Source of the DNA: Amoebophrya sp. A120
Taxonomy: Eukaryota; Protista; Dinoflagellata
Length of the DNA: 64,000 bases
Direction of reading: 5' to 3'
Assembly: GCA_905178155.1 (NCBI GenBank)
Contig: CAJINV010000002.1
Span: forward strand, 1,029,809-1,093,808
Part shown: positions 1 through 64,000 of the stretch, one piece after another
How the letters are laid out: each line of letters begins with the position of its first letter
How positions within the stretch are numbered: position 1 is the stretch's first letter
Notes under the pieces: generated by a model
What the model was told of the DNA's origin: nothing
The model's input: the letters and a program-made list of their open reading frames with translations, nothing else
Database searches by the model: none
Program-made: the position numbers and the translations under genes

Positions 1-3000
1 GGTACCAGTTGGTCCTACTTGTTGCTGGTGGTTTACAACTCCGCCGACAACACTACTATTACCACCAGCCACGCCGGATATCAAAGTAGAGCTCGCGGAT
101 TGATGCGTGCCGGCAAGATGACCAATCGGGTTAGCGAAATGCAGCCCTCCGAGTAGTTCCCGAGACTCCTTCTTGTTCTTGTTCGCTTGGAGCTTCTCGT
201 TCAGCATTTGCTGCAATTCCGCCGGCGTGAGCCCGTCGATCTTTTTCTTATTCGACGCCTCCAGGGTTCCTCGCGGCGGCTTGTCTAAGGTGCTGCTCAC
301 ATTCCGGGACAGATCGCTCTCCGTCGCGGAAGAAGCGGCGTTGGGAGAAGAGGCGTTGGCGAGGGGGGTGGTGAGACCTCCTTCTTTGGCAGTTGCAGTT
401 GCAGATGCAACACCTGCAGCTCGTTCCACAGCAGTTTTGGAAACCGCGACTCCAGATGCTGAGACTACCTCCGCCGAAGTTGCAGTAGCAGCAGCTGCAG
501 TGACAACAGCGGCCGAATTGTTTTGTTGCTCGCCAATTACATCCGCTGTCGGAGGACAAGTCGAGGTTTTGTTCTCGACAATATCCGTATGACAGTGCAC
601 AACTCCGCCTCCCCCCCATTTGCATAGCATGAACGGCAATACAAGCATCAGCAAGAATGCCGGATTTGCATGACAAATTTGCAGTGGAGTGTAATGCTAT
701 TTGGGCTACCAGAACTTGTCATGCAAACAGTGCCAAGAGGCAAGAGGTGGATTCGGTATTTTGCATGACAAATGAGGGGGAAGAGGAGTTGTTCACTGTC
801 ATAATCCGTTGTCGCGGTAGTCGTTGTGTTGTCGCCAGAGGTGCCGGAAGAAGCGTTGTCCGCTGAAGACGCTCCACCGGTAGTGGTCAAAACCAGGTTA
901 TCGACCGCTACGGTATATCAAATGCAAAAATGTCTGGGTCTGGAAGAATACAAGATTTGGTTGGTTGGTTGGGTAGCGCCTGTCGCCGGTGCAGGTCCCG
1001 CCCTCCATCGATTGCGATCCGGAGTAGCCGGACTTGTCATGCATGTTTCTCATGATCCATGATGCTTGTGATGCATGACCTTGCATCGCAGACATTTAGA
1101 GGGCTTCCTGATGCACCTTCCGCATGAGAAATGCTCTATCCGGGTAGCACAAACTGCTACTGCACCCCTGTTGCTTGTCATGCAATACAATTTTTTTTAC
1201 CGTCCAAGAATAGCATGACAAGTTGCATTCTTCCAGACCCAGACACTTTTACATTTGATACGGTAGTAGTCGTCGACGCGGGCGGATCCGAGACGGCTGG
1301 GGAATTCTGCTGCGTTCTTTGCTCCTTACCAGTAACTGTCGTGGCACGGCTGTCGTCCTGTTTTCGATTGTTTTCATTCCGATATTTAGCATGACAAACA
1401 TCGACTCGTCGAAATGACGACAGACAAGACACTACCACTAGTCAAAAATGCTCGTTATGCAATACAGATCTTGCCCTCCTAACCATCTCGCATCACAAAT
1501 GAATCCAGAATGATCGCCATCAATGCATTAAAACAAATAAACTCTCTATACGATTGGTGACTGGCTGTTGCCCACGACTCCTGTGCTCGAATTCAGCAGC
1601 GCTAGCGAATCGTCCGAACTTGTTAAGCCCAGCGTCGTGCTTTCCAAGCTGGGAAACTTCCGACAGACGATTTCGTCTTCCTCGTAGCTGTTTTCGCACG
1701 AGCTCACTCGCCCGTTTATGAACCCGGTAGAAGCCCGGGTCGTCGCCGTGGTCGCTTTGGACAGTTGCTGTTTGCACCGCTCCGGATCGCCGTCTTCGCT
1801 ACTGGATGACGAAGTGGCGCCGCCAACGTCCGTCTTCGTTGTGGACGAGCTCGCATCTTCCGTCATACCGGACTGCAGTTGTTTTTCGGTCACTGCATTA
1901 TTACCTGGCTTTTGCTCTACCGTAGGACCTTCTTCACTGCTAATACTTTCCTTTTCCGAAGAAGGCAGGTCAGTAGCAGCAGGCGCTGCTTGAGCAGATG
2001 AAACTACGGAGGACATCACAGCTGCGCCGGGGGCAATAGAACTAGCGTCCTTCATCTTGTTCACTGAGACCGACTCTACTACACCTGCAGTCACAGCACC
2101 ACCGCTGGCAATGTTGATAGTATTGACTGCAGCCGCTGCGTTTGCAGCTTGCGTTGCGGCGGCGGCGATCGCCACGGTCTGGGCGGAGGCTTTTATTGAC
2201 TTCGTGCGCTCCGCAAAGATGGACTGGATTTTGTCTTGTAATTTGGACGGATCCTGAAGCAGCTCTTTGTTCTGGGCGGTATTGGCAGCTGTGCCTGAGT
2301 TGTTGGCTGATGATGTCCCGTCGCCCTTGTCGTCCCCCTGCTGGCCACCTCCGTTATTTTGCGTGGAATTTGAAGATATGAAATCTAAAAATGTCTGGGT
2401 CTGGAAGAATGCAACTTGTCATGCTGATTTTGGATTCTAAAAAAATCTGTATTGCATGAGCAGCAAAGAGAGTCCAAGTTGTGCTACACGGAAAGAGCAT
2501 TTGTCATGCGGTATAGGCATCAGGAAGCCCTCACAAAATCTGTGATGCTAGGGCATGCATCACAGACATCAGGAGTCATGCAAAATGTGCATGACAAAAC
2601 CTAGCAATCTTCCAGACCCAGACATTTTTACATTTGATAGAAGAAGTGATGGTAAAACTTTGGATGTTATCCGCCCGAAGAGTCCCGACCATGGGAGCAC
2701 CAGCACCTGTTGCGGTACTACTCAGGTTCGTTTGAGACCCAGACTGCGGCAGTTGTTGGCTCTGCTGTTGCTGTAGCTGCATGTTGTAAGAAGTGCTGTT
2801 CGACGTAGCAGTTTGCTCAGTTGCAGTGGCATTGAGAGGACCAGTGGCAGACGTTTGTTGTGCTTGAGCTGCATTGAACGAAGTACCGAAGGATGCGGCA
2901 TTTCCCGTTCCCCCAAGCTGTTGCTGCTGTCCCGTCGCTGCTGTTGCTGTCCCACTCTGCATTTGCTGCATCGACGTTACCGCACCAGTAGACTGGAGGT

Positions 3001-4685
3001 TCAGATTGGACATACTATTCAAACCTTGCTGCTGTTGACCACCAGCAACTCCAGAGCCGTATTGCATCTGCTGCTGCTGGACGCCTCCAGTAGAACTAGT
3101 GCCCATCATGCTGCCTCCACCAGTCGTGCCACTACCGTACCCGCCAATGTTTTGCTGCAAGTTCGCATTGGATCCGGAGTTCATTTGGGAAGATGAAAAT
3201 TGGGCGGTGTTTGTTCCACCGAAATTCGACGTCCCTGACGGCTGGAACTGAGTGCTCTGCGCGTTCATGGTACTAGAAAATTGGTTTTGGTGCTGGCCGG
3301 AGGTCGTAGTTCCGAACTGATGAGAACTCTGGTAGTTGCTATTTCCCATTGCAGCAGCATTTTGGTTAATGCCGCCGCCACCGCCCATATGGTTCTGCAT
3401 GTTCATCTGGTTTTGCATGTTGCCGGACGTTCCGCCCATGATATGTGACGACATAGTATTATTGTTCCCCCCAACATAGCTGCTCGTGTTACCACCGCTA
3501 TGGTTGTGAAAGGAGTTGCTCTGGTGCATAGAATTTGCGGCTGCGTAGGAATTAGACATGTTCTGCTGCTGCTGAAAATTCCCAACTCCGCCACCCATTA
3601 TCAAGTGTAAAAATGTCTGGGTCTGGAAGATTCTGAGACTTATGATGCACGTTTTGCATGCGCCATGATGTCTGTGATGCCTGCCCTAGCATCACAGATG
3701 TTTTGAGGGCATCTTGATGCCTATTCCGCATGACAAATGCCCTCTCCGGGTAGCAAGAATCGCATTCCCTTTGCTGATCATGCAATACAGATTTTTTTGG
3801 AATCCGAATGCAGCATCACAAGTTGCATTTTTCTCTACCCAGACATTTTTGCAATCCATACCCATCATGCTCTGCTGATATTGACTGTTCATCATGCCGT
3901 TATGTTGACCGGAGGTATTTGATCCAAACTGGCTCTGCATCATGTTGCCATGATGTTGGCCGCTATTATTCCCACCACCGTGCATGCCGCTGTTCGCAGC
4001 TCCCTGATGCATACTGCTGTTGTACTGGTTTGAAACCATATTGGACGTCGACTGTTGGTCTCCCATGTGGTGCGCCGAACTATGGGCACTGTTGCTGGAC
4101 CAGGTGTGCGCCATGCTTTGCTGGTTTAGGTGGCCGGACGACTGCATGCTGTGTCCCATGTTGCCGGCACCGCCCATCGCACCAGAGCTGCTGTTGCCCA
4201 TGTTCATGCTGCTCATATCAAAACCAGAATTCTGGTTGTGCGAACCGTTGTTCATGCCGGTCATGCTGTGCGTGTTGCCCGCTACATTGGAACCCGAATT
4301 GTACTGGGAGGCGGTTCTGTTTATGTAGTTATTTGAACATTTTGGTTGTGTTTTTATGCATTCTTTTGTGAAACAATTCAAAAGCTATACCATGAAATAA
4401 ACCTGCTCGAGATTTAATACGCCAGAATTTGAAAGATGACTAGTACCCTTGTCCCCCCATCGCCCCCACGCCGCCCCCTCGCTGGTCAGCATAGCTCTCC
4501 TTTCCGCCAGGGCCAGCACTATTGCCAGCGTTGCCTCCTCCCGACCCGTTGTAGCGGCCCCAAACAGGATTCATTTGCGACACGGTGTTGGTCTGAAAAG
4601 TATTCACCATTTCCGCGGCGGGCTCCTGCGTAACCGTCGATGCGGGAGTTACCCCGCCGGAGTGGCTCCCGGCGGTCGTCCACAT
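1..4685 (-). CDS. Multi-exon low-complexity Q/N/S/G/M-rich hypothetical protein, 3' end runs off the window
   Basis: ATG at 4685. A GT-AG intron at 4317-4446 joins in phase 2. ORF frames 3692..4381, 2576..3604, 1546..2175, 1178..1438 and 648..890 join in frame when each introner plus 5 nt is removed. The frame stays open to base 1. Confidence 0.75.
588..803. mobile_element. Introner family B (TIR TATGACAGTGCACAACTCC)
   Basis: TIR at both ends, TSD ATCCG/ATCCG, removal restores frame. Confidence 0.9.
916..1260. mobile_element. Introner family A (TIR TATCAAATGYAAAAATGTCTGGGTCTGGAAG) with about 80 bp extra internal sequence
   Basis: TIR, TSD CGGTA/CGGTA, removal restores frame. Confidence 0.9.
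1383..1550. mobile_element. Degenerate introner-like intron
   Basis: TAT...ATA ends and three GCATKACA-type motifs. TSD decayed, but element+5 nt removal is in frame. Confidence 0.55.
2377..2639. mobile_element. Introner family A (opposite orientation to 916 and 3599)
   Basis: TIR, TSD GAAGA/GAAGA, frame restored. Confidence 0.9.
3599..3860. mobile_element. Introner family A
   Basis: TIR, TSD CCCAT/CCCAT, frame restored. Confidence 0.9.
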
Positions 4686-8249: not shown

Positions 8250-8481
8250 GACGAACAAGGGTGGGTTACATCTGCTTTTTTTCAAAAAGGTCTAACCCCC
8301 GCTAGTGGGTGGGCACTAGCGGGGGTTAGCTTCGGACGAATGTAACCCACCCTTGTTCATTTGTTCTAGGATGAACAAAGGTGGGTTACATTTGTCTGAC
8401 CCTAACCCCCGCTAGTGCCCACCCACTAGCGGGGGTTAGAACTTTTTGGGAAACAGGCAACCTAACCCACCCTTGTTCGTC
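8250..8481. repeat. Nested palindrome: two hairpin arms in inverted (flip/flop) arrangement
   Basis: Outer IR 8250-8268/8463-8481. 16-bp stems 8292-8307/8314-8329 and 8402-8417/8424-8439 with complementary loops GGTGGG/CCCACC. Confidence 0.9.
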
Positions 8482-13535: not shown

Positions 13536-13693
13536 TATGAACTGCAGAAGTGTCGTACTCGTATAAATGCATTTGCATTCATAAATATCCTCAGCATCAG
13601 AAATCAAATTTGTAATGCGGATATACGTTACGAAAAAGATTTGTAATGCATGACTGCAAAACCAATACGAGTACGATACTTTTGCAATGCATA
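13536..13693. mobile_element. Introner family C (TIR core GCAAAAGTATCGTACTCGTA)
   Basis: TSD ACGGC/ACAGC; empty paralogous site at 18535-18539. Confidence 0.9.
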
Positions 13694-13783: not shown

Positions 13784-14100
13784 TATGGATGTGTCAGGAT
13801 CGAGGTCAACAAAATTGAAAAGTTTGTGATGCGCAAAATGAATCCAGGGCACTGAAGGCCTCCCTGTATTGGGGAGCAGGCAAATGAGACCGACTGTGCG
13901 CCGCCTGTTTAGGGGTATACAATGTGCTGCCAGAGTAGCATGACAGAAGGAGTCTTCTTTGTCCAAACAGCATGACACACTGGATTTGGGTTCTCCCGAA
14001 ATTTTTCATGCGGCACTTGAAGACTGATGCTCCAACTGACATCGATTTTGTGCATCACAAGTTTTTCGATTTTGTCAATTTCGATTCTGACACCTCCATA
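13784..14100. mobile_element. Introner family E (TIR TATGGANGTGTCAGG...AAANTTGAAA)
   Basis: TSD TTAAT/TTAAT; empty paralogous site at 18617-18621. Confidence 0.9.
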
Positions 14101-17200: not shown

Positions 17201-18737
17201 GCCGCCGCGCGCTCTGGAGCTTCTTGCCAGACTTTGCTGCGCCATCGAGCCGGGCGATGCCCTACTTTCTTCGCAGCACCCACCCGGCCCACGGGCCACA
17301 GATCAAGTGCCCGCGGGCGAGGGTTTTCGGGGTATGGAAGAACGCACTTGGCCGCGCCATCCCCCCCCTGCGGCGGCCACTTCGCGTCGCCGCCATTGCA
17401 GGCAACGCGCTAGCCGGCGACCGCGAAGAGGGCGCCTGCGCCGCCTGCAGCCGGTTGCCATGGTAAGCGCAAGCGTGCTTCGCTAGAAACAAGGACGAGG
17501 CCGCGCAATCGTCGTCGGAAGCTGCAACCGAGCCACTTAACATACCATCACATCACGACAAGGAATCGCTTCACAAGTTCTATATTTACAGAAAGTAGAA
17601 CCGCTCCTGAAACGCTCGCGCTCTCCATCAAGGCTGTAGATCAGCCACGGCAGTACTGCCCTCGTTTGATCCCCCACCGCATCAGACTTGCGGCGAAAAC
17701 GTAACACCACACGAAAACGAAAAGATGAGCAAGAACCGCTGGCGTTTCCTACCTGACCCATCGAAAAACCAGTGTTCGTTGACGAGGGTCCGTTTGTATT
17801 CCCTCCTGTTGACGTGCTCCATTACATCAACCCTGCTGAAACGCGGGGAGACAGTTGTGATTGAAACTTCGGACAACGAGGGTGCGTGTCGTCGTGTATC
17901 TATGGTTTACTAGTGTTAACTCCAATGTTCAAAGCTCAATACTAGCCATGTTCTTGGTCTTGCCCCTGGCGAAGAGAATCAAAATGTAATTATTGTGGCA
18001 AGAACATACTGCTTTCCGTGATTCTATTCTGTTGAAACCGTACTACCCGTAGTCATTGTGTGGGGCGTTAGAAACCATGGCAAATAAACTACTTCATGGT
18101 CGAAAGCTTGCAACACAAATACAATTTTAATTTTTGTCATGAGAAACAAGTATGTCTACCATGACACGTGCAGCTCCAAGTCAAGCTCACAGGAAAATTT
18201 GCATTTTTCACTCTCAGGTGCCGTTTCACTTTTTCATGCATTTTCACTATTTTGACTTATCAATATTACTGTTTTGTATTCTACAGCCGATGCAAATTAT
18301 TTTCTCGGATGGTTTAAACTGAAACTTGTCGATGAATGATTGAAACCTATTTCTAATTCTATACCGTTCTAGTACTTTCTGGTGCTATAGCTCCCCCAAC
18401 TTCTATTTTCATTTTCTCCCCGCCTCTCCTGCCACAGAATTTCCACTCCCCTCTCCTCCGCCACCATTCCCACAGCCACCAGGAGTCGCTTCCACCTCAT
18501 TGTTCCTCGGCTTCATCGAGAAGCACATCCCGAAACAGCCACCCGATAACGATCTCCGCTTCCTCTCATTCAACTGCCAAGTGGATGTCTTCCCCACAAT
18601 GTCCGACTGCAGTTCTTTGATTCGTCCGTTTTGAGCACTTCCGGTGGCCGTCGTTTGCTCTTGTACCGTTTCAAACTGGTGTAGATCGCCTGTAGTTCCA
18701 CTTCCAGGTACGAGCACGTTGTGCATCATGTTAAACT
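14211..18737. repeat. Tandem segmental duplication, unit 2
   Basis: See unit 1; junction microhomology AAACT at 14211-14215. Confidence 0.85.
15250..17530. promoter_or_regulatory. GC/CpG-rich intergenic island (two lobes)
   Basis: Composition; positional paralog of 10300-12450. Confidence 0.45.
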
Positions 18738-23010: not shown

Positions 23011-23354
23011 GGTGGGTGCTGGGAGGGTTTTTATTTCGGTGGCGAGGTGGCAACGCTGCTCGGCCCTGGTGCTGCTGACGGCCCCATTAGCAATAGCATG
23101 TAGATGAAAGTCGATTTTTTTTGTTGTTCACGAACGTCAACAAACAGACCTTTTCCTTTCTCCCTCTCTGTCAGGAGATCGCGATGCTTTGGTCCCATCC
23201 TCCACCACACTCAGGACCGACCTCTTCACGAAGAGGGTCCTCACTTCGGTGTGAGTGAACACAGCTGGCTGGCAGGCTCCAAACAACCTCCGGTAGCCCA
23301 CTTGATAGGTTCCATGACAATCGTGTTCTTCTTCATACACACAAGTACAAACTA

Positions 23355-45900: not shown

Positions 45901-48900
45901 GTAGTCCGGGGAGAATTGTCTCTTGCTTGAACGTATGAACTGCAAAAGCATCGCACAACTCGTACTAATTGCTTTTCTGCATTACAAATTTTTTTCCTAA
46001 GGTAAATCCGCATGACAAATCTTATTTCTCATGCTGAGGGAATTTGTAATGCATTTATACGAGTACGATACTTTTGCAGCTCATAGAACGTTTCCTGTGT
46101 CTGAATCGCCCCCTTCGGCTTGGCGCCGCTAGACCCCGAGGTATAGAGCAGGCACGAGATGTCCTCCGGTAGCACGCGGCACTCCGGCTTTCGGATATGG
46201 AAGCGTCAGGCTCGAACTCGACAAAATCGAAAAAATTTGTGATGCATAAAATCGATACCAGTTGGAAGCCAAGCCCAATTTTCAAGCGGTGCGTGACAAA
46301 TTTCGGCACCGTCAAAATCCAGTCTGTCGTGCTGTTTGGGGACAGTAGGCGCCTTTTGTCATGCTACTTTAGCAGCTCTATCGCAGACCCCAAACAGGCT
46401 GACAGTCGGCCTCGTTTTCCATGCCTGCAAGAGAGGCGCTCCATGCCTTGCAATTTATGCATGAGAAAGTATTTCAACTTTGTCGATTTCAATCCTGACA
46501 CTTCCATATCGAAAGAGAAACTCGTACTGTTCATGATCGGGATCACTAAAAGCAGCATTTTGAATATCCAAGAAAAAAACATTGTTAGTGTAAATTTGTG
46601 ATGCAAAACCTGCAAAATAATTGCGGCTGTCATGCTGATGTGCATTGCAAGGTCCATTCAAGCGCGTTTTCACGTACAATCTATGCATGACAGGTTTTTG
46701 CTCTCATGCGAGACAGATTTGTAATGCTGTTCCTCCAAAAAAGTTACAGCTACAATCTTTTTTTCCTGGATATTGAAAAGACTTGTCGGAAATGATGTCT
46801 GTGTACTTCAGGATTTGCGGTTCTGACTCTGACTCCACGCCGGAAAAGATGTTCGTCAGCTGTTCTTGCGGCTTCTGATACAGACGCTGATCCTCCTCGG
46901 CGGAAACAGCAGGAGGTGTACCAATAACAATGAGTTTGACCTGCTGCAGAAGTGCGGTATTGTTGTTGTCGCCTCCTGTTGTACTTCTGCTATAATTCTC
47001 CCTGATGATGTCGCTGAATTTTTCCAACGCTTCGCCACCCGGGACGAAGACGGCAGTTAACTCTGCCTCTTCCATGACGTGTTTCAAAACACTTTTCTCC
47101 GCATGGTGGGAGAGCCCGACAAAGGTGATGCCGGAAATTTATGGCGTTCTCAACTGTTACATTCTCAACTGTTACGTGGATTTGTGATGCTGGAATGGCA
47201 AAAGGGAAAGGCCGGAGCTTGCAACTCTTGCATTACAAATTTGGCCAAGATATCCATGCTGTTTAGCTATTCCAAAATTTCTCATGCGAAGTAGCTTCGC
47301 CGTGCGGTGCTTGATGCTCATTTTGCATGACAAATCGTGTAACAGTTGAGAATGTAAGGTTTGAGAACGCCATAAAATTAAGCTTGCCACCGCGGCCACC
47401 GCTGCGTGCTCGAGCTGCCGTGCGGTTGCCGTCGCGAAGTCGCCACTGTAAATCCCGACGCGGATCTTCTTGTAGTGGTCGTGACAGGATTCACTTGTAG
47501 AGGACATCTTCAAGTCCCTGCCCCCTAAGCGAAGATCAAGATTCTCATCTTCTCCTAGTGAAGACAAGCTTAGCTCCCTTTTCAGGCTTCTTTCGAAGAA
47601 CGCAACCAACTTCAAGGCCTCGTCGAATACATCAGCGTAGGACTTCCAATGCCAATTCAGCTGGCCGCGCAGGTGGTCCTTGTACTGGTGGAGGTCTTCA
47701 TGTGCGAGTAAACCGACTTTATCTTCGAGGATGGTCGTCCTTCTAGTCTTGATATTTTGATGTCCACTTGATGCACTTGATGCCCCGTCAAACAGTTCTC
47801 GTCCTTCTTGCGCGCGAAAGCCAAACAACGGTCTAGGCCCGGCCGAAGCGCGGACAATTTCCCGCATGGCGGTGTAAAGGCCCTGCTGCATCGTCCCCGT
47901 TGTCCAGTCAGCTGGTCGTCCTCCTTCTATCAGAGTGCACAACCCGTCCCCCGTTCATCCCTCATTTGTCATGCAAAACCCCAAACCCAAGTGCATCCCT
48001 GTGGCACTGTCTGCATGACAGATTCCGGTCGGAAGTCCAAACAATAGCAATACTCCACTAGGCGCATGAATTTGTGATGCACCGGCTCCACGTGTGCTGG
48101 TGTTTGTCTTGCTGCTCATGCAACACAGATGAGGGAGACAGAGGGGGCGAAGTTGTGCACTCTCATACCCCCGAGACTCGTGCTAATAGCCACCTGCGTT
48201 TCGATCAGAAACTTGGAAGGCGGTGTGAGAGATAGGAGTCGTGGTGGTGATGTTGAGGTGCTGTGGTCGTGCGCTGGCGTAATGGTCTGAGCAAGTAGAT
48301 TGTAGTTATGATGATTCTTGATCCCCCCGGCGGCCCCCAACACCGCCGCAATAGAACTTGTTCCTGCGCGGCAGCCGGTACTAGAATAATAAGTACCGTC
48401 ATAATTCCAGCTACTGTTGTTTCCGTCGCCAGTACCCATATCCAACAAAGTCTTCACGGGCAGGGACAAAGTTTCTCTGCTGGCGGCATGGTAAACGTCG
48501 ATCAACGCGTCGGTATGTTGAAATTTCAGCTTCATGATTTCTTCCTCGTTTTTTAACCTCAGCGAACTCTTGTTGGCCTTTTCGTACTTGCTCCAAATCT
48601 CGTTCGGAACCCAGGCACTGGACACAATCGTCAACAGGTTGTAGTCCTGAAGAGGGCTGTGATAGGCCGGAAACCGCATGGCTGTTCGATAAGGCCGCTG
48701 TATGGAGGTGTCAGGCGTTGGACATTTTTTCCAAAGTTGAAAAACCTTGCAGTTGCAACAGCAACTGACAAAACGCAACACGCAAGATAAAATTTGCCTG
48801 TGTAGTTGCTACAATAAAACGAAAACCAACCTGGTGGCAGATTGTGGTAGTGGATGTTGGGGAAGATCTTCGTGCTGCAGAGCATCTACAAGAAGAGCTC

Positions 48901-50101
48901 TTGCCTTTAGCTTTACCCTAAGCAGCATGATGACTACAGGTTGACTTTGCGTGTTTGGCATAAAAACGGTCAACATGATGCGCGGACTAGGACCTGTATA
49001 TTATGAGTTCGTCTGGACGAACTGGCGTCCTCGCCGGTTTAGATAGTTTCAACACGTCGGAATAAGTGACACCTAAGTTAGTTCAACTTTGTCGAAGATT
49101 TCACTACACCTGACACTACTTCCATAACAGGCTGTTCTCCAATGACCAAGGTCGCGCCGTTTCGTAAATCTTCAACGCGCAGAGGGCGGAATTCAGTACC
49201 AATCCGTGGTGGTCCTTGTGATGTACTCGGTGGTGAATGACCTCGACTTAAAACGCCCCCTTGTCGACGTCCACTCCCGGCGCTCTTTGTTAGGACACCC
49301 CGAGTCCTCTGCTGACCTACATGACCCTTCGGTATCGGTGGAGGACTTCCTGGAGGTGCTTGCAGTTGATGTGAGGACAGTTCTTGTTGTACTAACGGTG
49401 CTGCGAAGTCGTAGTTGATTCGCCGCACACCACGGAAGCTGAACGTGGACCCGTCCTTCTTTTCCGGGGTGGAGATGAACGAACTCGAACTCTTTTGCGA
49501 AACACGAGTCATTTTGAAAAAAGCTTAAGTGGTACAAGTTGTAGTTTGTTAGTGAGAAAAAAATTTTCGTGCCTTGTAGTTTACGTGGACTTTATACTTG
49601 GATCTAAAATTAGTTTTTCCAGCGCTCCGAGCAGAGAAGCGGTAGAGATACAGATACAGAAAAATAAAAATTTAAATTATCGGGTACAAAGCACAACTGT
49701 TTATAGTTTTTTGTATTTTCGAGCCACTTATCATGTGCGCCGCCGTCAATGGCAATGTATAAACGACTTCTCTACTGTTTTATTTCATCTTCATGCGACT
49801 TTCGTGTTTGTAAGTTGGTGCCGACCACAAGAAAGTGTTTGTAAATGCATAAATTGATGTACAGTTTTTTCGGTGGTCCTTCTTAAAGTTACCGAGGTTC
49901 GATTGGAGAGCTGCACCGAAAGAGGACAACTGGATCCAACTTCTTTGAGACCCACAAACCGATGTCGTTGACCGAGATCGCGCGTAGCTTATTTATGGCT
50001 ATGGGTTGATCATGATCTTCTGCCGCTTCTCGGAGTTTGTTAGAGCAGATGAGGCAATTTGTTGTATAATAATTATAATGTTTTGTGTTCTGCAGCAGCA
50101 A
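39902..50101 (-). CDS. Carboxylic acid reductase-like / NRPS-like enzyme (adenylation - carrier - thioester reductase); 5' end uncertain
   Basis: A domain: LLYTSGSSGAKPKG, NYASTEAG, GEILV...FQGY, FATGDIG, DRKSSFFKLSNGEWV, QIFVHGDS, FTLQNHLLTGPGKQARPKI. Carrier: FDSLG. Reductase: IFLTGGSGFLG, HSGAKVDHLLPY...NV, GYAVSKWVGE. 13 introners. Confidence 0.88.
41067..41335. mobile_element. Introner family A
   Basis: TIR, TSD GAGCC/GAGCC. Confidence 0.9.
42016..42270. mobile_element. Introner family A
   Basis: TIR, TSD TACTT/TACTT. Confidence 0.9.
43448..43588. mobile_element. Introner family C
   Basis: TIR, TSD CGCAC/CGCAT. Confidence 0.9.
43745..43901. mobile_element. Introner family C (opposite orientation to 43448)
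   Basis: TIR, TSD AAGCC/AAGCC. Confidence 0.9.
44170..44421. mobile_element. Introner family A
   Basis: TIR, TSD GACCG/GACCG. Confidence 0.9.
45312..45547. mobile_element. Introner family B
   Basis: TIR, TSD AACAG/AACAG. Confidence 0.9.
45731..45879. mobile_element. Introner family C
   Basis: TIR, TSD TCTCG/TTTCG. Confidence 0.9.
45934..46085. mobile_element. Introner family C
   Basis: TIR, TSD GAACG/GAACG. Confidence 0.9.
46196..46508. mobile_element. Introner family E
   Basis: TIR, TSD TCGGA/TCGAA. Confidence 0.9.
46565..46772. mobile_element. Introner family F
   Basis: TIR, TSD TTGAA/TTGAA. Confidence 0.85.
47140..47374. mobile_element. Introner family D, 235 bp
   Basis: TIR, TSD AAATT/AAATT. 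Confidence 0.9.
47928..48167. mobile_element. Introner family B
   Basis: TIR, TSD CCTTC/CCCCC, frame restored. Confidence 0.8.
48701..49126. mobile_element. Introner family E, old and expanded
   Basis: Degenerate TIR, TSD decayed, element+5 nt removal in frame. Confidence 0.65.
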
Positions 50102-52997: not shown

Positions 52998-55900
52998 TCA
53001 CTTCAACTTCTCTCTCTCCTTCGGCCTGTATCCTCTCCTGGTCGGCCGGTCATTCGTGAATCGTATCCTTCCGTCCGTCTTCTTAATCGCGCCCGCCCTA
53101 TTCGGATCGTTGTTCGGAACTGTGGGGTTGTTCACGCCGAAGGTTCTCGTCGTGGTTACCACTGTTTGATCACCTCCAGCTCCACTCTGCCCACCATCTC
53201 CATTATTATCCTGTTCCAGTATTCCCAATTTTCTCGCTTGTTTCTCATTGTAGCCCATTTTGGAAATCATGCTACTTGTGTGCAAATACCCCAAAGAACT
53301 CCGCAACCGGATGATCTGTTCGTCCTTTTGGTCTTCCGTCAACCGGTCCCAAAAAATCCGGTGTATGGTCGCTGTCCGCGCCCCAAACTTGCTAAACATC
53401 GCCTGTTTCAGACTCAAAAACCCACCGGGAGTGTGCGGGACGACAGAGCAGTTGGCGTTGTTGGATTTGTTGTTTTATCCTGTGCAAAAGTATCGTACAG
53501 TACTCGTATTGCAGTCATGCATTACAAATCTTTTTCTTAGGGTAAATCAGCATTACAAACTTCACTGTCATGCTGTGAAAATTTGTGGTGCATTTATACG
53601 AGTACGATACTTTTGCAATGCATATGTTTCCTGCTTGGAACTGCAACTGCGGCCCCATCGCGGACATGCTGTTGTATTCCAGCGCGATATTTGGCTTCAA
53701 CAAGTGTCCCGCGAAGAAACAATGCTGCTCATCGAATTCCCGGCCGACCGACGTGTTGATGCTCGCTTTTATGAATTGCACAAGTACAACTTTTATGATC
53801 GCACCACCGGTCCAAATTATCATGCCAAACTTGCATGACAAATCTGGTTCCTGAGGTATTTCGGCATGACAAATTTCATTTGTCGTGTTGAGGACATTTG
53901 TAATGCGAATCATGCTAGAGCTAGTAAGATGCTTTTGCAATGCATAGCTTTCGTCTGTGTCCGGTTCAACGCCTTTTCCACGTCCAGCTGTAATTCGTCC
54001 GACCCCTGCAGCTTATGCATTGCAAAAGTACCGCACGACCCGTAGTGGCGGCAATAAGTACTGCATGACAGGTCTATCTGCGTACGCTGATTAGCATTAC
54101 AAACTCCAGTGTTAATCATGCTAGGCAATGGCAAACTTGTATTGCACTTCCTACTTAACAAGTACGACTCTTTCACAATCCCTACGGCTGCGCTTTCAGC
54201 AACATCCCATCCAGCCAGAACTCGTGCAACCGCTCCTGAATCCACATCGGGCAGGCCCGTTTGGTTTCGATCTCGATATCGCGGTGGTCCTCGGAAAATT
54301 CGTAGGCGTCGCAGGGGTGCTGTTGTTCGTCGTCGTGGTTTTCATCGTGCTGCTGCTGGTCACCGTCTTCTTGGTCATGTTGTGCATCACCAGCGTGTCC
54401 TCGTGGTGTGGCAGCCTCATTCACCTCCTCGTCGTTTTCCGCATCTGCTTCCGCATTGAAGGCAGCGAAGTCGGACGAAGTATCGTCGTTTAGCCGGTCC
54501 CCCGGGGAGGTGGAGGAAGAAGAAGCAGCGGAAGATGAAAAATCTGTATAGTTCTCGAAGTCCATCATGGGATGGTCTCCGGCGTTTTGCTGCATTCCGT
54601 CCCTGCAGCTCAGGTGGCTCGCCTCCCTTCGCAGCTTGGATTTGCGGCCCCGTGACGACGCAGAGGTGGCAGACACACTGCTTCTAGTGGTACTACAGCT
54701 AATATCCTCGGTTGTATCTTCGTGGTCCTCGGTGGGTGTTTGATCTTCTACTCGTGAAGATGCTGTGCTGTGATGTCCGGGCACCGAGGCTGACACATTG
54801 ACCGCATCTGAACCTGGATCGTGGAGGTCGTCGTGCTCATCTTCGGCGCCAGTGTTTCTACTGTCTGAGGTTCCTTTCAAAGGACTCCTGCGACTTCTCC
54901 TTCTGCTTCTCGTGCTAGCGTTCCTCGCTGCATCTGCATCAGAAGTTATTTGCGTTTCGTCGTGTGATGGAGAAGTTGATGCTGAGGAAGAAAACATTTT
55001 TTCCCCTTCCTCCCGAAGAATTTCATCGTCGTTCAAATCCGTCCGATCAGAACACTCAAACTCATCTCTGTTCTGACCCCAAAACGCTCCCGTAGTTTCC
55101 TGCTCGTGCCGTATTCTCATCTCCAACCTCTGTTCGTCGAAGCAGGGACTCTCAAACCCGATGGGGACTGGTTTCGCGAGCTGCTTCTGGAGTTTCTGTT
55201 TCGTAGCGGTTGTACTGTTTGAGTTTGTCAACATCCCGGACGCGAAAGAAGGCGTGGCTGCCGCTCCATCATCGGATTTCCAACCCAATTTCGCCTTCCA
55301 CCACTCCTTCCGCCTTGTATTTTGCAAGTCCCGGTAAGTTTTCCGCGTCATTGCGGTGCGGATTTCAGTAGGAGCCTCTGTAGTTGAAGTAGAACTGTCG
55401 TCCTCATGAGCAGCACATCCACCTCTAGGCGCAGCACTCGCAGATCCTCCAGATGCTTTGTCGTTGCTTCTGGTACTGTTCGACGGAGGTTTATTCTTGC
55501 TGCTTCCAGAAGATGAAGGTCCTGTTGCACGACTTATTTCCACAAAAAACGGCATCTTCGGTTTCAACACGTCCAAGGAGTACAGGGTCATGTAGATATA
55601 GTACCCCGTCCACCCGCACGCATCCACTTGCTCCCGACTTTGAAACGCCCGACAGCACGCCTCCATGAATAAAGGGAGATTTGTGTCCCAGTGTTGCATC
55701 ATCACACAGGAAAACATGATCTGGGCCCAGAAGGTCGCTTCTTCCGGTTCTATTTGGTCAAAACCTTCAATTTCTTCCCCGGTTTGCGGATCCCGCATGA
55801 CAGGTTCGCCTTCTTGAACCGGCGGCGGCGGGAGAAACTTCGCGACCTCATCCACTAATCTCGGGAACAAGCCGGAGAAATCCCGCTTCATTGAAGTATC

Positions 55901-56890
55901 TGTCGTCATGTTCTGGACCCCGAAGATTGTCGGCACAGCAGCAGAGTTACTAGTGCTTGCAGAACTTTTTCTCGAAGTTATTGAGTTGATGTCACCACAA
56001 CTTCCGCCCAGATTTAGTGTCGCCAGAGACCAAATTACAGTCGCGAGCGTTTCGAACCGGTAAAACGCGTAGTTCGCTTCCACATTGCACAACAAATGCT
56101 CGCCGATTTGCCAAAATCGGTATTCCAATATCGCCATGGAAAAGAGCATCTGCGGCACCTCCTTCGCCCGGATTTCGTGCTTCTTCTCCATAATGTCAAA
56201 ACACAACTTCTTGAAGTTCAGATGTTTCACGATTCTTTGCCTATCCGCCGTCGTGAAAAAACAATTCGGGTGCGCGACGGTTTGCGCCAAAATGTTGAAT
56301 ACCCGGACAAGAAAGCGCTCGTCCACGGAGTCGGATTTTTTCGAATAAGATTCATACAGCCGCAACACCCGCGCGGGGCTGGCCTTGATCATCAGACACT
56401 TTTTCGCGTAACGGGAGTCTAGTTGGTCGGGCGGCGGTCGTTTGAAGAGGTTGCCACGGAGCAACTCCTTCGGCTGCCAGAGTTTGAGAAATTTCGGGGA
56501 GACCATGGTCTGCGGGTACGTCAAGTCCGTGATCCATTCCGGCTTGGAGGTGCTGGTGATGGTGCGCCGGGTAGTTGAGGTTGGTACAGCTGATGGCGAG
56601 ATGTAGTTCTTGACCCTCACCATGGAGAACAACTTGATCTGGCAGGTAGAGCGAAGTTGGCATAATCTCCTTCTTGTGAGAGCAGAAGTTGTTCCTCTGC
56701 TCGGTTGTAGTGCCGTCGGCGTGTATGTGGGCATCATCATCACCGCGCTACGGCTTGAAGATAGCACCGTCGTCGTGCGATGCGTGGGCATCATCATCAC
56801 CGCACCGCGGCCTTCTGTCGTGGTGCAGCGCAGGCTGCGGGGAGCACGCAACAACGGCTGAGACGAGGACGACGGGTATGAGCGAGCCAT
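52998..56890 (-). CDS. Putative RAP-domain RNA-binding protein with organellar-targeting-like N-terminus
   Basis: First in-frame ATG at 56890; R/S/T-rich, nearly acid-free N-terminus; helical-repeat region. Spliced C-terminus SDELQLDVEKAL...NIALEY...LSLKQAMFSKFGARTATIHRIFWDRL resembles RAP (PF08373). Confidence 0.7.
53476..53624. mobile_element. Introner family C
   Basis: TIR, TSD TGTTT/TGTTT. Confidence 0.9.
53770..53946. mobile_element. Introner family C, diverged
   Basis: TIR, TSD GCTTT/GCTTT. Confidence 0.8.
54014..54184. mobile_element. Introner family C, diverged
   Basis: Weak right TIR, TSD CAGCT/CGGCT, frame restored. Confidence 0.75.
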
Positions 56891-59291: not shown

Positions 59292-62200
59292 TCATCCGAC
59301 AATCTATGGCGTTCTCAAACGTTACATTCTCAACTGTTACATGAATTTGTGATGCAAGAACGGCAAAACTAAAAGGGGTGGCCTTGCGCGTATTGCATGA
59401 CAGATTCGGCGCAGATTCTGAGCCTGTTTGGCTCTTCGCGAATTTGTCATGCGAAGCAGCTTGATCGTGTCAATTCTGATTGTAATTTTGCATGACAAAT
59501 CATGTAACAGTTGAGAATGTAACAGTTGAGAACGCCATACAATCCTGCTGTCGAAGTAATTCTCCTTCCACAAAGAGGCTAAAAATGCGACATTAATCTC
59601 TTCCACCGAGAAGTCCTCCATTTCCGGTTTGGATGTAGTTCCGGTTTGATCATGTCCTGCTCTCATCCGAAACCCAAATAACCCCCGTTCGTCCCGCAAT
59701 CGGTTGAACAGGTTCCGGCTGATTAGGAGTTCTGCTTTGTTCCCTCGGTGATCTTGAAGTAGATCTCGTGAAGATTCAGATTCTCGTAACAAACCAGTAC
59801 CACTACCAGCGGTCGTGGTGGACAATGCAGCGAGACCACTTCGACTTGTTCCAGGATCTGTTGAAAATAAATCTTGGTCCTCCTCTTCTTGTGGTCCTGT
59901 TCCGTCCAACATTTGTTCCGCTGTAGTTCTTGTTTTCGATGGTCCAGCGCCTGTAGTGATTTTTCCCGATCCCGACATGCTCCTGGTGTCATCTTCATCA
60001 AACAAGGGAAACGCCACGTACTCTTCAATCGGGATCGTGGTGGTTCTGCAGGTTCTGGTGGTCGTGTCGTGTGAGCTGTGGCGAGCATTTGCAGTCGTGA
60101 AGCGCTTTTCTGATGCGAATACACCTTGTTGTAGTTCTCGCAGCATGCAGATGGTACCGTAGGGGTACAACGATGAACTGCTCGAGGGTTGAAATCCTCC
60201 TCGCCGCCCAAAATTAATGAACTCAGAGTTGTCGTCCTCACCACCATCCCGCCGACGAGATGTTGACTGCGATAGAATTTGTGCGCAGTGGTGGCAAGAC
60301 GTGGTGCTGGTGGTGTTGCTGGAGGAACCGCCCCTGGATGCAGTGTAGATGCTTTCTTCATGCTCCTCGTCGTCTTGTGCCTCAACATCTACCGAAGCTG
60401 GTAGTTCTTCCAAAAGCTGTCCTGATGTGCTAAGATAAGAAGCCTCCCGTGGCCCACGTGACGAACTACTGCCGGCCAATGCAAGAGGAGCCACGTGTTG
60501 TTCCTCTTCCGGTTCCTGAGAATGAAGTAAAGGGTCAGCACGTCGTGAAGAGGACATCGACGGGTCTCGGATTCTCATCCGGAGGAGGGATTCCGCCAGT
60601 TTTCCATCGACGGAAGGAGGCCCGCCGGCTGCTCCACAGCATGCTGAACTACCTCCCGCTGCGACGGCGCCAGAAATTGTGCTAGTATCTGTTGTGCAAC
60701 CGCCCGAAGAACCACCACTCGTCCCGAGGGCGGCCTGGTGCTCCGAAGGTAGAACCTCCACGTCCTGCGTTCCTCTCCTCCAGGATTTTTTGTCCCCACT
60801 GCCACTGCTAGCCCATATTAATCCACTCATGACTTGCCACCAGGTGGGCGGAAGGAGCGCGCTCGCTGCTGTTGCACAGGAGAATGCAGGTGCTCCACCT
60901 GAGCATGAAGAACAACCTTGGTGTAGGTGGCCGGACATCGTCCTACTTGTCGAGGAACGCGAGGAAGTCGTGCCCTGTTGTCGAGCTCTGCGTGGTCCAC
61001 CTCTCTCGTCCTCGCCCCTCCGTTCCGGTAGGTGGCCGGCTTGTTCATCTGTGTCAACATCTTCACACGGAGAAAACCACTGCCGTGGATCGGGGCACCA
61101 GGAGGCGCTGCACAGTTGCGGCGAACTGGAACTACTGCTACTGCGTATGCAATACAAATTTACTGTACATGTACAAAATGCATCACAAATTTCACCGACT
61201 TGGAGCATGCCACTTGTCATGCTGAGTAGAATTAAAGGAAAGCTTTGTCATGCAGAAACCGCATTGGTACATGTACAGTATGAAATTTACTGTGGATACT
61301 GCTAGGAGGGGCATGTTCACCACTCCGCCTCTCAACGTTATCATACCTCTCCCGACTCACCAATAATCCAGCCAAAATCCGCGTTTTCGAAAACAACAGC
61401 ACCCCCCGATTGCTGATCAGGGCGAAACAACCAGCATATGCTGAGAAAAAACGTCCCCAGCCCAGAGTTGTCATGCGAATGCGCAATGACAGAAACATTT
61501 GCAATGCGCATCCCCATGAGAGGCATTTCCAATCGTGTTTTGGCATTTGTAATGCCGTAACCAGGATGAGAAAGTGGCTTTCTCATGCGGCTGCCCGTGC
61601 TAACCAGCACTACACTGCAGATGGAAATTCGTCATGCACAACTCCCAAAACTTGGAGATTTCTGTTGCAGATTTACCAACTTGACTCTGAGGTGCTGGGG
61701 ACGTTTTTGCCCAGGATAAAACCCCGTGCACCGTCACATCCACGAACTTCGGCAGTGTGGGGTCCGGGACCTGTTGCGGAAAATTCGTCCTCTGTGCCGG
61801 GGTTTTCTTCCGCAAACGCGTTTTCTTGAGATAAATTTTCTCCGGCTCATGTTCTTCACTGGTGTCTACTTCACTGCGGGGAATCCTGCCACTGCTGCTC
61901 TGTTGAGCACGACCATCTTCGTCATATTCTTGTTCATCATGGTCTACTGCTGCTTCCTCTGGAATTTCCCTTTCTTCCGGTTTCTCTTGCATGATTCCGT
62001 CCAGAATGGTCAGCAACTTCTTTTCCTTTTCCGAATACAGGTCCTCTAACGTGAGAGGGCCACGTCGGCGTTGATGTTCTAGTTCTTCTTCCTGTGTCGT
62101 GCCGCGGCGGCTTCGGGTGTTGTTGAGCGTGGAAGAAGCTGCAGATTTCCTGGTTTTAATTTTCTGCTTGCGTTTTCTCGTTTCTACTTGTTCTCCTCCC

Positions 62201-64000
62201 TGTTGCTCCGACGTAGTTGTCCCTCTAGGCGTCATCATGAATTTCCACATCTGGCTCATTCGCTCCGGGAAAGAATATGATCCATGCTGCCCATCTGCCA
62301 ACCTTGCTCCTTGTTCCCTTGATGTAATTCCGTGGTCCCCGTCAGGAGTTGCTGCAGCAGCGTGACCCAGTTGCCTCCGGGGGCCTTGACGACGTTTGGC
62401 ACTGCTTTTGTAGTCCCGTTTTCTCTGCTGTAGGTCTCGTTGAAGATTTGACATTGACGCTGATCCCTGCTGCCGCCCTGATTGATGTTGAACATCTGAC
62501 AGCACACGGCGTTGTTCCCGGTGGTTATTTGTGCCACGACAGGTTCGTTCTTGGCCACAGCTAGGCAATACCATCATCTCCGGTATCTTCAATACCGGCG
62601 GTGGCGATTCTTGTTCTGTTGCACGACGAGGACGGGCGATGACGGCCGTAGGATTTTTGCCAACATTTGGTCTCGCCGTCCTCGACGGCCTTTGCCCGAC
62701 GCCGAGGAGTTGCTCCGCTACTAGTCTTTGGCGCAAAAGCTCCTCGATGTTGCCGGAAGCTGCTGCACCAGAACTGGTAGCTGCCTGAACACGTACTAGC
62801 CTTGGAGTGGAGGACAGAGGAGGAGCAGGTACTACTTCTGCACCACCACGGTCAACATTGAAGATTCTTGGCACAGCAGCAAAAGTAGAGCTGCCAGAAG
62901 CCCCGCCTGCAAGAGGAACTGGCGCTCCACGCGGACTCGTAGCAGGAGCACGCGATGTTGAAAGAGGCCCGGATGTTAAAGTAGGGGATTGTTGGACGTC
63001 GAGCTGCTGGCCGTGAAGATCTCCACCTGCATGGCCCATCACGACCCCCTCTAACATAGAAGTCGGCGGTCGGTCGTGTATGTGGTCATTCGAAATAAAG
63101 GCGACCTGGTGAAGATTTGGATGTTGTGCCGCAGCTATTAAAGCTTCTGTAGATGAAGTAGAGGAGGAGGAGGAACTCGTCGAACCAGAAGCACGACCGG
63201 CAAGATTTTTGTCAGCACCACCTTGTTGTTGTCCGATCGTCCCACGGCCAGATGAAATTTTTATCCCGAGTTGTTCATCTTGCAATTCGTCCCTGATTTC
63301 ATTCCTGATATCGACAAAGTCGCTATGAACTGCAAAAGGAAAAGTATCGTACTCGTATAAATGCATTACAAATTTTCTCAGCATGAGAAATAAAATTTGT
63401 AATGCTGATTTACCTTAAAAGATAGATTTGTAATGCAAGACTTGCAGTTATACGAATACGATACTTTTGCACAGGATAGTCGCCTCTGTCCCACAATTTC
63501 CGCAGAACCTCGTTTTTGATGCGCACCAAGTTCTGGAAATTCGCATCCAGTCTTGAGGAATCTGGTTCCTGTCGCAGGGACGAAGATGAAGACGCGCCAA
63601 CAGATGAAGCGTGTAGTCCCCGATCATCGTTGTTTCTTGCACATGGAGGTGGATCTTCTGCTTGTTGCACTATTCCCATGATCTGTGGGGTCGTGCTGCC
63701 GAGGTGGAGCCGGTCTTGCGCACGGGATAAAGTAGTTCTTGTTGGCTTTATCCCCACCAGTTGCCCGCTCTCTTCGCAATACCAAGCAGACAAAAATGCC
63801 TGGTCAGTTGCTCGTGCTAGTTCAACATCCAAAGAGATGTCCGATGAGAACGCGGGGGCGCCACAAGTGCCTGACGGCGCTGAAGCTGATCCGCCGCCAC
63901 TATAACTTTCTGGGCCAGGACCAGGAGAAGATCCTTGTCTCGCCATCTCCTCCACCGATGGCGCAGCACTTTCTACTTCCCCAACCGCTTCATCGTCTTC
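59292..64000 (-). CDS. Large low-complexity hypothetical protein, 5' end outside the window
   Basis: ORFs 63410..63955, 61600..63384, 61232..61546 and 59337..61220 join in frame across four introners; stop TGA at 59292-59294. Confidence 0.7.
59305..59539. mobile_element. Introner family D, 235 bp
   Basis: TIR, TSD CAATC/CAATC. Confidence 0.9.
61146..61298. mobile_element. Introner, singleton family (TIR core TACTGTACATGTAC)
   Basis: Imperfect TIR, TSD CTGCG/CTGCT, frame restored. Confidence 0.8.
61437..61718. mobile_element. Introner, singleton family (TIR core AAAAACGTCCCCAGC)
   Basis: Imperfect TIR, TSD decayed, element+5 nt removal in frame. Confidence 0.65.
63324..63478. mobile_element. 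Introner family C
   Basis: TIR, TSD GTCGC/GTCGC. Confidence 0.9.

What the first reader, a model, noticed from the sequence alone, without database searches (positions are those of the whole stretch)
588..63478. Dense multi-family system of TIR/5-bp-TSD transposons acting as non-canonical introns
Seen: 47 elements of 105-426 bp in about 9 TIR families. Nearly all run TAT...ATA, and 45 have a 5-bp direct repeat (30 perfect). All lie in coding sequence and none in intergenic DNA. At each junction I checked, removing the element plus one repeat copy restores the frame. TSD sequences show no base preference, so most junctions cannot be GT-AG. Known: Amoebophrya genomes are reported to carry non-canonical introner elements with inverted and direct repeats; as far as I know their splicing machinery and mobilising enzyme are unresolved. 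Inference: these are non-autonomous DNA transposons tolerated because the cell removes them from RNA by a GT-AG-independent route.
Basis: partly seen in the sequence, partly recalled or inferred. Interest (0 to 1): 0.85.

Follow-up and report, generated by a model that had tools for sequence, protein, structure and literature searches.

The report
Jumping-gene introns in a plankton parasite
This stretch of DNA from the marine parasite Amoebophrya A120 holds 49 small inserted elements, all inside genes; they are an already published kind of unusual intron, likely spread by a transposon enzyme and likely cut out of the RNA by an altered spliceosome, and the window gives new clues to where the cut falls.

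Summary
I find 49 elements of 105-426 bp in 9 families plus 5 singletons. Nearly all run TAT...ATA, most carry a repeat of exactly 5 bp, all lie in coding sequence, and each would put a stop in its gene if kept. The window is Amoebophrya sp. A120: it encodes three deposited A120 proteins letter for letter, and these fit removal of element plus one repeat copy at 15 of 16 junctions (the last lies beside the stop). A paralogue in the window is an empty site for two elements. DNA contigs keep the elements; RNA-like contigs leave the window at four predicted edges. The system is already published (Farhat 2021; Gozashti 2025), including TAT ends and 5-bp repeats. I did not find three points in print. 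(1) Imperfect repeats put the 5' cut 0-1 base before TAT, probably 1, so the donor would read N-T-A like host G-T-A. (2) A motif TGT[ACG]ATGC lies in 45 of 47 elements, is conserved, is often spaced 31 bp apart, and also occurs in some GT-AG introns. (3) Decayed copies tend to be GT-AG. No transposase was found. A spliceosome-free route is not shown.

The parts
588..803 (.). element, family A, repeat 5/5
916..1260 (.). element, family B, repeat 5/5
2377..2639 (.). element, family B, repeat 5/5
3599..3860 (.). element, family B, repeat 5/5
13536..13693 (.). element, family C, repeat 4/5; absent from the paralogue
13784..14100 (.). element, family D, repeat 5/5; absent from the paralogue
18200..18740 (-). 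paralogous gene end that is an empty site for both elements above (one copy of each 5-mer; exact at the first site, one mismatch at the second)
18957..19121 (.). element, family C, repeat 4/5; RNA-like contig stops at its edge
19270..19427 (.). element, family C, repeat 5/5
19511..19672 (.). element, family C, repeat 5/5
19731..19886 (.). element, family C, repeat 5/5; RNA-like contig stops at its edge
20394..20587 (.). old element, ends decayed (6/20), repeat 3/5, GT-AG possible at exact length
20994..21148 (.). element, family C, repeat 5/5
21226..21460 (.). element, family F, repeat 4/5
21922..22068 (.). element, C-like ends, repeat 4/5
22360..22621 (.). element, family B, repeat 5/5, 32-bp perfect inverted ends
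24833..25049 (.). element, family A, repeat 5/5; removed in deposited protein P0010
25116..25220 (.). element, family C (shortest, 105 bp), repeat 5/5; removed in P0010
25267..25481 (.). element, family E, repeat 4/5; removed in P0010
25542..25711 (.). element, small family, repeat 5/5; removed in P0010
25774..26081 (.). element, family D, repeat 5/5; removed in P0010
26156..26311 (.). element, family C, repeat 3/5; removed in P0010
27222..27642 (.). old 421-bp element, repeat 1/5, non-canonical ends; removed in P0010 with cut register 0-2
27679..27930 (.). element, family B, repeat 5/5; removed in P0010
28463..28714 (.). element, family B, repeat 5/5; removed in P0010; RNA-like contig stops at the predicted base
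31001..31209 (.). element, family E, repeat 4/5
31248..31405 (.). element, family C, repeat 4/5
31480..31645 (.). element, family C, repeat 4/5, begins CAT on the + strand
31845..32000 (.). element, family C, repeat 5/5
32169..32332 (.). element, family C, repeat 5/5
41067..41335 (.). element, family B, repeat 5/5
42016..42270 (.). element, family B, repeat 5/5; splits the NAD_binding_4 domain (profile 1-129 and 127-192)
43448..43588 (.). element, family C, repeat 4/5
43745..43901 (.). element, family C, repeat 5/5
44170..44421 (.). element, family B, repeat 5/5
45312..45547 (.). element, family A, repeat 5/5
45731..45879 (.). element, family C, repeat 4/5
45934..46085 (.). element, family C, repeat 5/5
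46196..46508 (.). element, family D, repeat 4/5
46565..46772 (.). element, family E, repeat 5/5
47140..47374 (.). element, family F, repeat 5/5
47928..48167 (.). element, family A, repeat 3/5, GT-AG at register 1
48701..49126 (.). old 426-bp element, D-like ends, repeat 1/5, GT-AG at register 2
53476..53624 (.). element, family C, repeat 5/5; removed in P0085
53770..53946 (.). element, family C, repeat 5/5; removed in P0085
54014..54184 (.). element, C-like, repeat 4/5; cut register 0-1 by P0085 and two orthologues
59305..59539 (.). element, family F, repeat 5/5, two codons before the stop
61146..61298 (.). element, small family, repeat 4/5; removed in P0088
61437..61718 (.). element, further family, repeat 2/5; cut register 1-2 by P0088
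63324..63478 (.). element, family C, repeat 5/5; removed in P0088
1358..1551 (-). predicted GT-AG intron with two motif copies
20816..20968 (-). predicted GT-AG intron with one motif copy
21525..21696 (-). predicted GT-AG intron with two motif copies 31 bp apart
30838..30963 (-). predicted GT-AG intron with two motif copies, one each way
32403..32523 (-). predicted GT-AG intron with one motif copy and short TAT...ATA inverted ends
24382..28892 (-). host gene, MBOAT acyltransferase, deposited A120 protein P0010 (790 aa), 9 elements
39905..49524 (-). host gene, NRPS-like (AMP-binding, NAD_binding_4), one 2174-codon frame across 13 elements
18412..23127 (-). host gene, inositol polyphosphate kinase-like, 805-codon frame across 9 elements and 4 predicted GT-AG introns
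53001..56623 (-). host gene, DUF6831/DUF6832, deposited A120 protein P0085, 3 elements
59295..63679 (-). host gene, deposited A120 protein P0088, 4 elements

Best explanation
The 49 elements are introner elements of Amoebophrya sp. A120: short inverted-repeat insertions with a 5-bp duplicated target, likely spread by an integrase-type transposase encoded elsewhere, and likely removed from the RNA by an altered spliceosome as the element plus one repeat copy. Shown here: organism, anatomy, insertion with a 5-bp duplication, exact loss of element plus 5 bases in the deposited proteins, and retention in DNA. Inferred step 1 (about 0.7): the mobiliser is a Ginger/IS3EU-like DDE enzyme that reads the invariant TAT ends and the A-tract near position 11-15 and inserts without base preference into genes. 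Inferred step 2 (about 0.6): the 5' cut falls one base before TAT and the 3' cut four bases after ATA, so the element supplies +2 U and +3 A of a donor N-U-A that differs from the host's G-U-A only at +1. Inferred step 3 (about 0.55): the host spliceosome, reported to lack U1 snRNA, does the cutting, guided by the paired ends. The internal motif TGT[ACG]ATGC is likely a binding site on double-stranded DNA, most simply for the transposase and possibly for a factor that marks the intron.
For: Organism: P0010, P0085, P0088 are named A120 proteins and map exactly on the window. Element plus 5 fits 15 of 16 junctions in them; plus 2 or plus 8 fits only one, inside a serine run. A25 and AT5.2 orthologues align across the MBOAT and DUF junctions. 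Empty sites in a paralogue. All 49 put a stop in frame if kept. DNA run X1 crosses whole elements in unbranched contigs at single-copy depth 43-49; four pieces of RNA-like runs X3 and X6 end at the bases the model predicts. Terminal logo TAT-7 nt-AAA in 358 outside copies equals the A120 motif of PMC7789003 section 11. Register: 54014 allows 0-1 (proline kept in two orthologues), 61437 allows 1-2, 27222 allows 0-2. All 9 predominant A120 non-canonical motifs in Table S4 of PMC7789003 have T at +2, and all 9 in A25 begin TT. 8 of 8 parsed GT-AG introns of the window begin GTA (the parser favoured A at +3). Copies with repeats of 3/5 or worse are GT-AG at registers 1-2 in 4 of 17; perfect copies are GT-AG at registers 1-4 in 7 of 184. 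A120 family 38: integrase-like frame, 5-bp TSD, TA/TA termini.
Against: No joined RNA read was seen: the joint table was filled by other copies, and X3 and X6 are RNA only by the tool's guess. No transposase frame in 358 outside copies or 4 long candidates; PMC7789003 found no transposase in A120. Register 1 rests on three junctions, two of them on deposited models alone. A codon-likelihood test on 40 mismatches leaned to register 0 (upstream letter better at position 5 in 8 of 10), and two old copies are GT-AG at register 2. G before TAT is not clearly enriched in older copies (23 of 63 against 49 of 184, mirror strand 21 of 63). No excess of G-U over A-C pairs in the sense-strand stems (153 against 145). 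Table S4 motifs depend on how the aligner places ambiguous junctions.
Confidence: 0.6

Rival explanations
1. Same elements and same RNA-level removal, but by a spliceosome-free route: the paired ends are cut and rejoined by a nuclease and ligase, as proposed for euglenid nonconventional introns.
For: No base preference at either cut. Both insertion directions are used equally, which suits a symmetric hairpin. A young copy folds far better than shuffles (z -10.3). U1 snRNA not found in A120 (PMC7789003 section 10). Euglenid introns with TIR and TSD-like repeats leave as circles (PMC11282704 passage).
Against: An older spliced copy folds no better than shuffles (z 0.05). Positions 4-10 of the ends are the least conserved of the ends while TAT is nearly invariant. 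No wobble-pair bias. Decayed copies shade into GT-AG introns of the same length. A near-complete spliceosome is present (PMC7789003 section 10).
Confidence: 0.3
2. The elements are cut from DNA in some life stage, like ciliate internal eliminated sequences.
For: TA-type ends and one repeat copy left behind resemble IES excision (recalled). Contigs drop rare variants, so a minority excised form is not excluded.
Against: DNA contigs cross whole elements without branching at single-copy depth (records 21124-22383, 26053-27703, 31182-31630). Old copies have gathered repeat mismatches in place. PMC7789003 defined these introns from RNA-seq on an intact genome.
Confidence: 0.03
3. Ordinary GT-AG splicing at nearby cryptic sites or after RNA editing of the ends.
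For: 3 of 49 are GT-AG and 2 GC-AG at exact length.
Against: Deposited proteins and orthologues need exactly element plus 5; 42 of 47 junctions have no canonical register; editing near borders in only 2-4% (PMC7789003 section 10).
Confidence: 0.03

Closest known systems
Amoebophrya A120 introner elements (Farhat et al. 2021, PMC7789003; Gozashti et al. 2025, PMC12130899)
   Same: Same strain; inverted repeats starting TAT, seven variable bases, three or more A; 5-bp direct repeats; non-canonical borders; many families.
   Different: None in kind. Added here: empty sites, a bound on the cut position (left unknown in Fig. 3 legend), the shared internal motif and its spacing.
A120 introner family 38 (Gozashti 2025, main text and dataset row), and IS3EU/GingerRoot transposons (PMC10045372, PMC6839031)
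   Same: TA..TA termini, no base preference at the target; family 38 also has a 5-bp TSD and an integrase-like frame.
   Different: IS3EU and GingerRoot usually make 6-bp duplications, and GingerRoot shows no preference for genes; the window's copies carry no frame. I could not compare family 38's sequence with these families.
Euglenid nonconventional introns (PMC11282704 passages)
   Same: TIR pairing, TSD-like repeats at the borders, MITE origin proposed.
   Different: Euglenid borders follow a pyrimidine|purine consensus; none here. Circles are untested here.
Fritillaria borealis non-canonical introns (PMC13326754 abstract; PMC11282704 passage)
   Same: MITE-derived introns that escape GT-AG and are handled by a changed spliceosome.
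   Different: There the ends are fixed (AG-AC, AG-AT) and U1 is kept; here the end bases come from a random target.
Micromonas and Aureococcus introners (PMC11282704, PMC7789003 passages)
   Same: Non-autonomous DNA transposons whose removal uses the duplicated target.
   Different: They build canonical splice sites, so only fitting targets survive; here any target does.

Membership tests
Amoebophrya A120 introner elements | Found in the A120 genome | tested here: met
   Three named A120 proteins map exactly
Amoebophrya A120 introner elements | Inverted repeat starting TAT, 7 variable bases, 3 or more A | tested here: met
   against PMC7789003 section 11; families D and F have CAG or CAA in place of the A run
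Amoebophrya A120 introner elements | Direct repeat of 3-5 nt at the borders | tested here: met
   exactly 5 bp
Amoebophrya A120 introner elements | Repeated across the genome in families | tested here: met
   summed depth in the thousands over element bins against 45-56; 358 copies in 141 outside loci
Amoebophrya A120 introner elements | Removed from transcripts at non-canonical sites | tested here: inconclusive
   Deposited proteins, orthologues and four contig ends agree; no joined read seen
Non-autonomous TIR DNA transposon (MITE) | TIRs, fixed-length target duplication, empty site | tested here: met
Non-autonomous TIR DNA transposon (MITE) | Autonomous partner with the same ends and a transposase | tested here: inconclusive
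   none in 470 kb of unique outside sequence; whole genome not held
IS3EU / GingerRoot | TA..TA termini | tested here: met
   PMC10045372, PMC6839031 passages
IS3EU / GingerRoot | 6-bp target duplication | tested here: not met
   0 of 47 at 6 bp; not filed as a member
IS3EU / GingerRoot | Integrase-related DDE transposase | not testable with these tools
   no coding copy in hand
GT-AG spliceosomal intron | GT and AG at the cut sites | tested here: not met
   possible in 3 of 49
GT-AG spliceosomal intron | Lariat through a branch A | not testable with these tools
   needs lariat sequencing
Euglenid nonconventional intron | Pyrimidine|purine border consensus | tested here: not met
   no base preference
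Euglenid nonconventional intron | Stable end-pairing RNA structure | tested here: inconclusive
   z -10.3 for one copy, 0.05 for another; no wobble bias
Ciliate-type internal eliminated sequence | Excised from DNA | tested here: not met
   unbranched DNA contigs across elements; rare forms not excluded

The most novel reading that the evidence does not exclude
Amoebophrya A120 defines introns from the inside: a host factor binds the conserved TGT[ACG]ATGC motif, laid out in either direction at about 31-bp steps, and stands in for the missing U1, so the spliceosome cuts at N-U-A and a fixed distance past AUA whatever the border bases are. All introner families carry this one signal, which lets an integrase-type TA..TA transposon insert anywhere in a gene without harm, and old GT-AG introns share it.
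Probability: 0.2. Interest if true: 0.85.

Novelty: already known. Interest (0 to 1): 0.42.

Why it matters
How Amoebophrya removes tens of thousands of introns without GT-AG ends or a detected U1 snRNA is an open question in print. The system itself is published, so the finding adds no new kind of element. The window does turn the question into three direct tests: imperfect target repeats read out the true cut position from ordinary RNA-seq; one conserved internal motif gives a bait for the protein that binds all families; and the TA..TA, 5-bp signature narrows the search for the mobiliser to integrase-type enzymes.

Tried and rejected
No whole genome is held and the outside loci could not be searched as records. 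One search listed no holder on record as RNA: no evidence either way. Raw RNA run X9 laid only 53 reads, nearly all on one element end at 90-95% identity, so it is not this strain or not these genes. Two element-end patterns found nothing in viral contigs. Four long candidates in outside loci: one chance pairing of internal segments, one 972-bp copy seen twice with no frame over 86 codons, and one 2459-bp copy with a 415-codon frame that has no Pfam family and no Atlas hit; no transposase. The NRPS-like gene's own deposited protein was not returned (search limited to 2000 residues). G-U versus A-C test on 218 stranded copies: null. GT or AG enrichment by register in 247 copies: not distinct from the mirror strand at register 1. 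Codon-likelihood test of register on 40 mismatches: weak, leaning to register 0. Motif in GT-AG introns of outside loci: 19 hits against 2.95 expected, but only 13 of 136 predicted introns carry it and the parse is visibly noisy, so 'the motif is in all introns' is rejected. A hairpin intron at 30662-30747 was considered and dropped: the parser did not choose it. A 70-bp intron at 53-122 was left out of the motif count as doubtful. No Rfam family in the window. No earlier findings.
Full report
Observation. An unbiased inverted-repeat scan and a TAT...ATA scan recover the elements far above chance: 76 pairs against 11 in shuffles, and 27 with a perfect 5-bp flanking repeat against 0. Homology added decayed copies. 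The set of 47 has 30 perfect repeats, 13 at 4/5, 3 at 3/5 and 1 at 2/5, and only a length of 5 shows any repeat. Two older copies of 426 and 421 bp turned up while building gene models, giving 49. They fall in 9 families and 5 singletons. All genes that hold them are on the minus strand, and the elements lie in both directions within them.

Frames. Removing element plus 5 bases gives the longest frame at 41 of 47 junctions. Full parses give 2174 codons across 13 elements (NRPS-like), 805 across 9 elements and 4 GT-AG introns (inositol polyphosphate kinase-like; family motifs recalled, weak Pfam hit), 1166 across 3 and 1287 across 4. Each of the 49 would put a stop in frame if kept; 38 also shift the frame. 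None lies in the 26.4 kb outside my gene models, against 27.1 kb of exon and GT-AG intron; one 2.4-kb frame (35597-37993) holds none.

Organism. A search with one exon returned a 790-residue protein identical to the window, named Amoebophrya sp. A120 (CAD7931939.1), with relatives from A25 and AT5.2. Two more exons returned two more A120 proteins. In these three, 15 of 16 junctions fit element plus 5 in 11-codon windows. The sixteenth lies two codons before the stop, where the window does not fit but the protein's end agrees with my model. One junction in a serine run also fits plus 2 and plus 8. These models were built from transcripts (PMC7789003), so they are second-hand RNA evidence. The orthologue alignments are independent of them and run across the MBOAT and DUF junctions, with a one-residue gap next to one MBOAT junction.

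Insertion. The gene end at 13400-14215 has a paralogue at 18200-18740 that lacks both its elements and holds one copy of each 5-mer. A scan of metagenome contigs with a family B end gave 141 loci, all listed from one assembly (JACKZZ01) with the same families at up to 95% identity. There, 185 of 515 inverted-repeat pairs had a perfect 5-bp repeat and all 185 ran TAT..ATA; 257 had no perfect repeat, and 70 had a 4-bp repeat with assorted ends. The logo of 358 copies is TAT, seven variable bases, then an A run, the motif given for A120 in PMC7789003 section 11. These loci were chosen with a family B pattern, so family sizes are biased.

DNA or RNA. In one search, run X1 matches unique stretches without a difference and crosses whole elements in unbranched contigs at single-copy depth. 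Runs X3 and X6 (RNA by guess; empty over several intergenic bins) have pieces that end at 19122, 19887, 24827 and 28714 with letters left over. These are the bases predicted for spliced contigs, including a one-base chance overrun at 28714. The joints themselves were not shown, because other copies filled the table. A second read test could not be run, so direct junction reads remain missing.

Where is the cut? With a perfect repeat the cut cannot be placed. Call register c the number of upstream-repeat bases that go with the intron. Deposited proteins allow c 0-1 at 54014 (the proline is kept in two orthologues), 1-2 at 61437, 0-2 at 27222 and 0-4 at two others. The paralogue suggests 2 or less at 13536; an X3 contig allows 3 or less at 18957. 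Only c = 1 fits all. The intron would then begin N-T-A-T. The window's parsed GT-AG introns begin G-T-A in 8 of 8 (parser bias noted), and all nine predominant non-canonical motifs listed for A120 have T at +2, while those for A25 begin TT (Table S4; aligner-dependent). Against: a codon test leaned to c = 0, two old copies are GT-AG at c = 2, and G before TAT is not clearly enriched in old copies. I hold c of 1 or less as likely and c = 1 at about 0.6.

An internal motif. TGT[ACG]ATGC occurs 132 times in 45 of 47 elements (9.65 kb) and 16 times in the other 54 kb; it is in 345 of 358 outside copies. It lies in both directions (352 sense, 292 antisense). In the four largest families it is better conserved than other inner positions (0.88-0.94 against 0.67-0.79; sites were picked on the consensus, which favours this). 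Same-direction copies are 31-33 bp apart in several families, and 62, 93, 124 and 186 recur. Weighted by family, 0.40 of distances fit a 31-bp period against 0.09 at random; after allowing any period this sits at about the 95th percentile of the null. It is also in 5 of 8 parsed GT-AG introns of the window (8 hits, 0.1 expected), which match elements only over 13-47 bases, but in only 13 of 136 noisily predicted GT-AG introns of the outside loci (19 hits, 2.95 expected). Three helical turns and no strand bias point to a protein on double-stranded DNA. The plain reading is a transposase site that survives in decayed copies; the bold reading is a host intron mark. I found no mention in print: motif with 'introner', 0 papers; main text of PMC7789003; its supplement text. 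Supplementary figures of that paper and Roy et al. 2023 (Curr Biol, seen only in reference lists) were not seen and may bear on this.

Mobiliser. No coding copy was found. TA..TA ends are the mark of IS3EU and GingerRoot, which usually duplicate 6 bp (PMC10045372, PMC6839031 passages). Gozashti 2025 describes A120 family 38 as a TIR element with integrase-like homology, and its dataset row reads 'Ginger; 5-bp TSD, TA/TA termini'. The window's families share that signature, so an integrase-type enzyme is the likely mobiliser; they are not filed as IS3EU or GingerRoot because the 6-bp test fails.

Papers seen. PMC7789003: abstract, sections 10, 11, 12, 16, passages, supplement passages and part 3. 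PMC12130899: passages; supplement file 8 parts 15-16 and found rows; files 13-14 not searched. PMC11282704, PMC10045372, PMC6839031, bioRxiv 2024.09.05.611473: passages. PMC13326754: abstract and outline. Searches listed no paper that resolves the splicing route.

Verdict. The splicing chemistry is still open; this window narrows it and makes it testable.

Noticed in passing
window 8241-8490: A 250-bp nested double inverted repeat (111-nt arms, 87% complementary, each arm itself a hairpin) outside genes, without TAT..ATA ends or a seen flanking repeat; a different mobile or structural element.
   Followed up: no
window 8707-9005: A second intergenic inverted repeat, about 118 bp at 73%, unrelated to the introners.
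   Followed up: no
window 7296-7533: Short tandem units about 30 bp apart beside a 28-nt inverted repeat, next to a plus-strand frame with a weak ribosomal L23 hit (7461-8075), the only plus-strand gene candidate seen.
   Followed up: no
window 9352-10146, 12697-14969, 17692-18737: Blocks repeated at about 5-kb steps (77-93% identity): a partial tandem duplication of the kinase gene's 3' end and its flank.
   Followed up: partly
window 6699-6757, 7763-7804, 9317-9371: A 38-55 bp sequence present three times at 100% identity outside genes.
   Followed up: no
L075 476-2934: A family B copy whose right end is interrupted by a 2.2-kb insert with a 415-codon frame (no Pfam family, no Atlas hit): possibly another mobile element nested in an introner.
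   Followed up: partly
L047 5001-5972: A family B copy with perfect ends and about 700 bp of extra inner sequence, no long frame.
   Followed up: partly
window 22535-22621: Raw RNA run X9 holds a family B end at 90-95% identity joined to flanks not in the window: a related copy that stays in a transcript of that sample.
   Followed up: no
window 30677-30746: A 70-bp TAT...ATA hairpin (17/20) without a flanking repeat near the end of a gene; could be a GT-AG intron 30662-30747 or part of an untranslated region.
   Followed up: partly
window 39905-49524: A roughly 2170-residue NRPS-like adenylation-reductase gene whose reductase part is closest to bacterial proteins at about 30% identity.
   Followed up: no
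window and outside loci, imperfect repeats: 20 of 40 mismatches between the two repeat copies are synonymous in the host frame, which would also fit a cut that slides between transcripts.
   Followed up: partly
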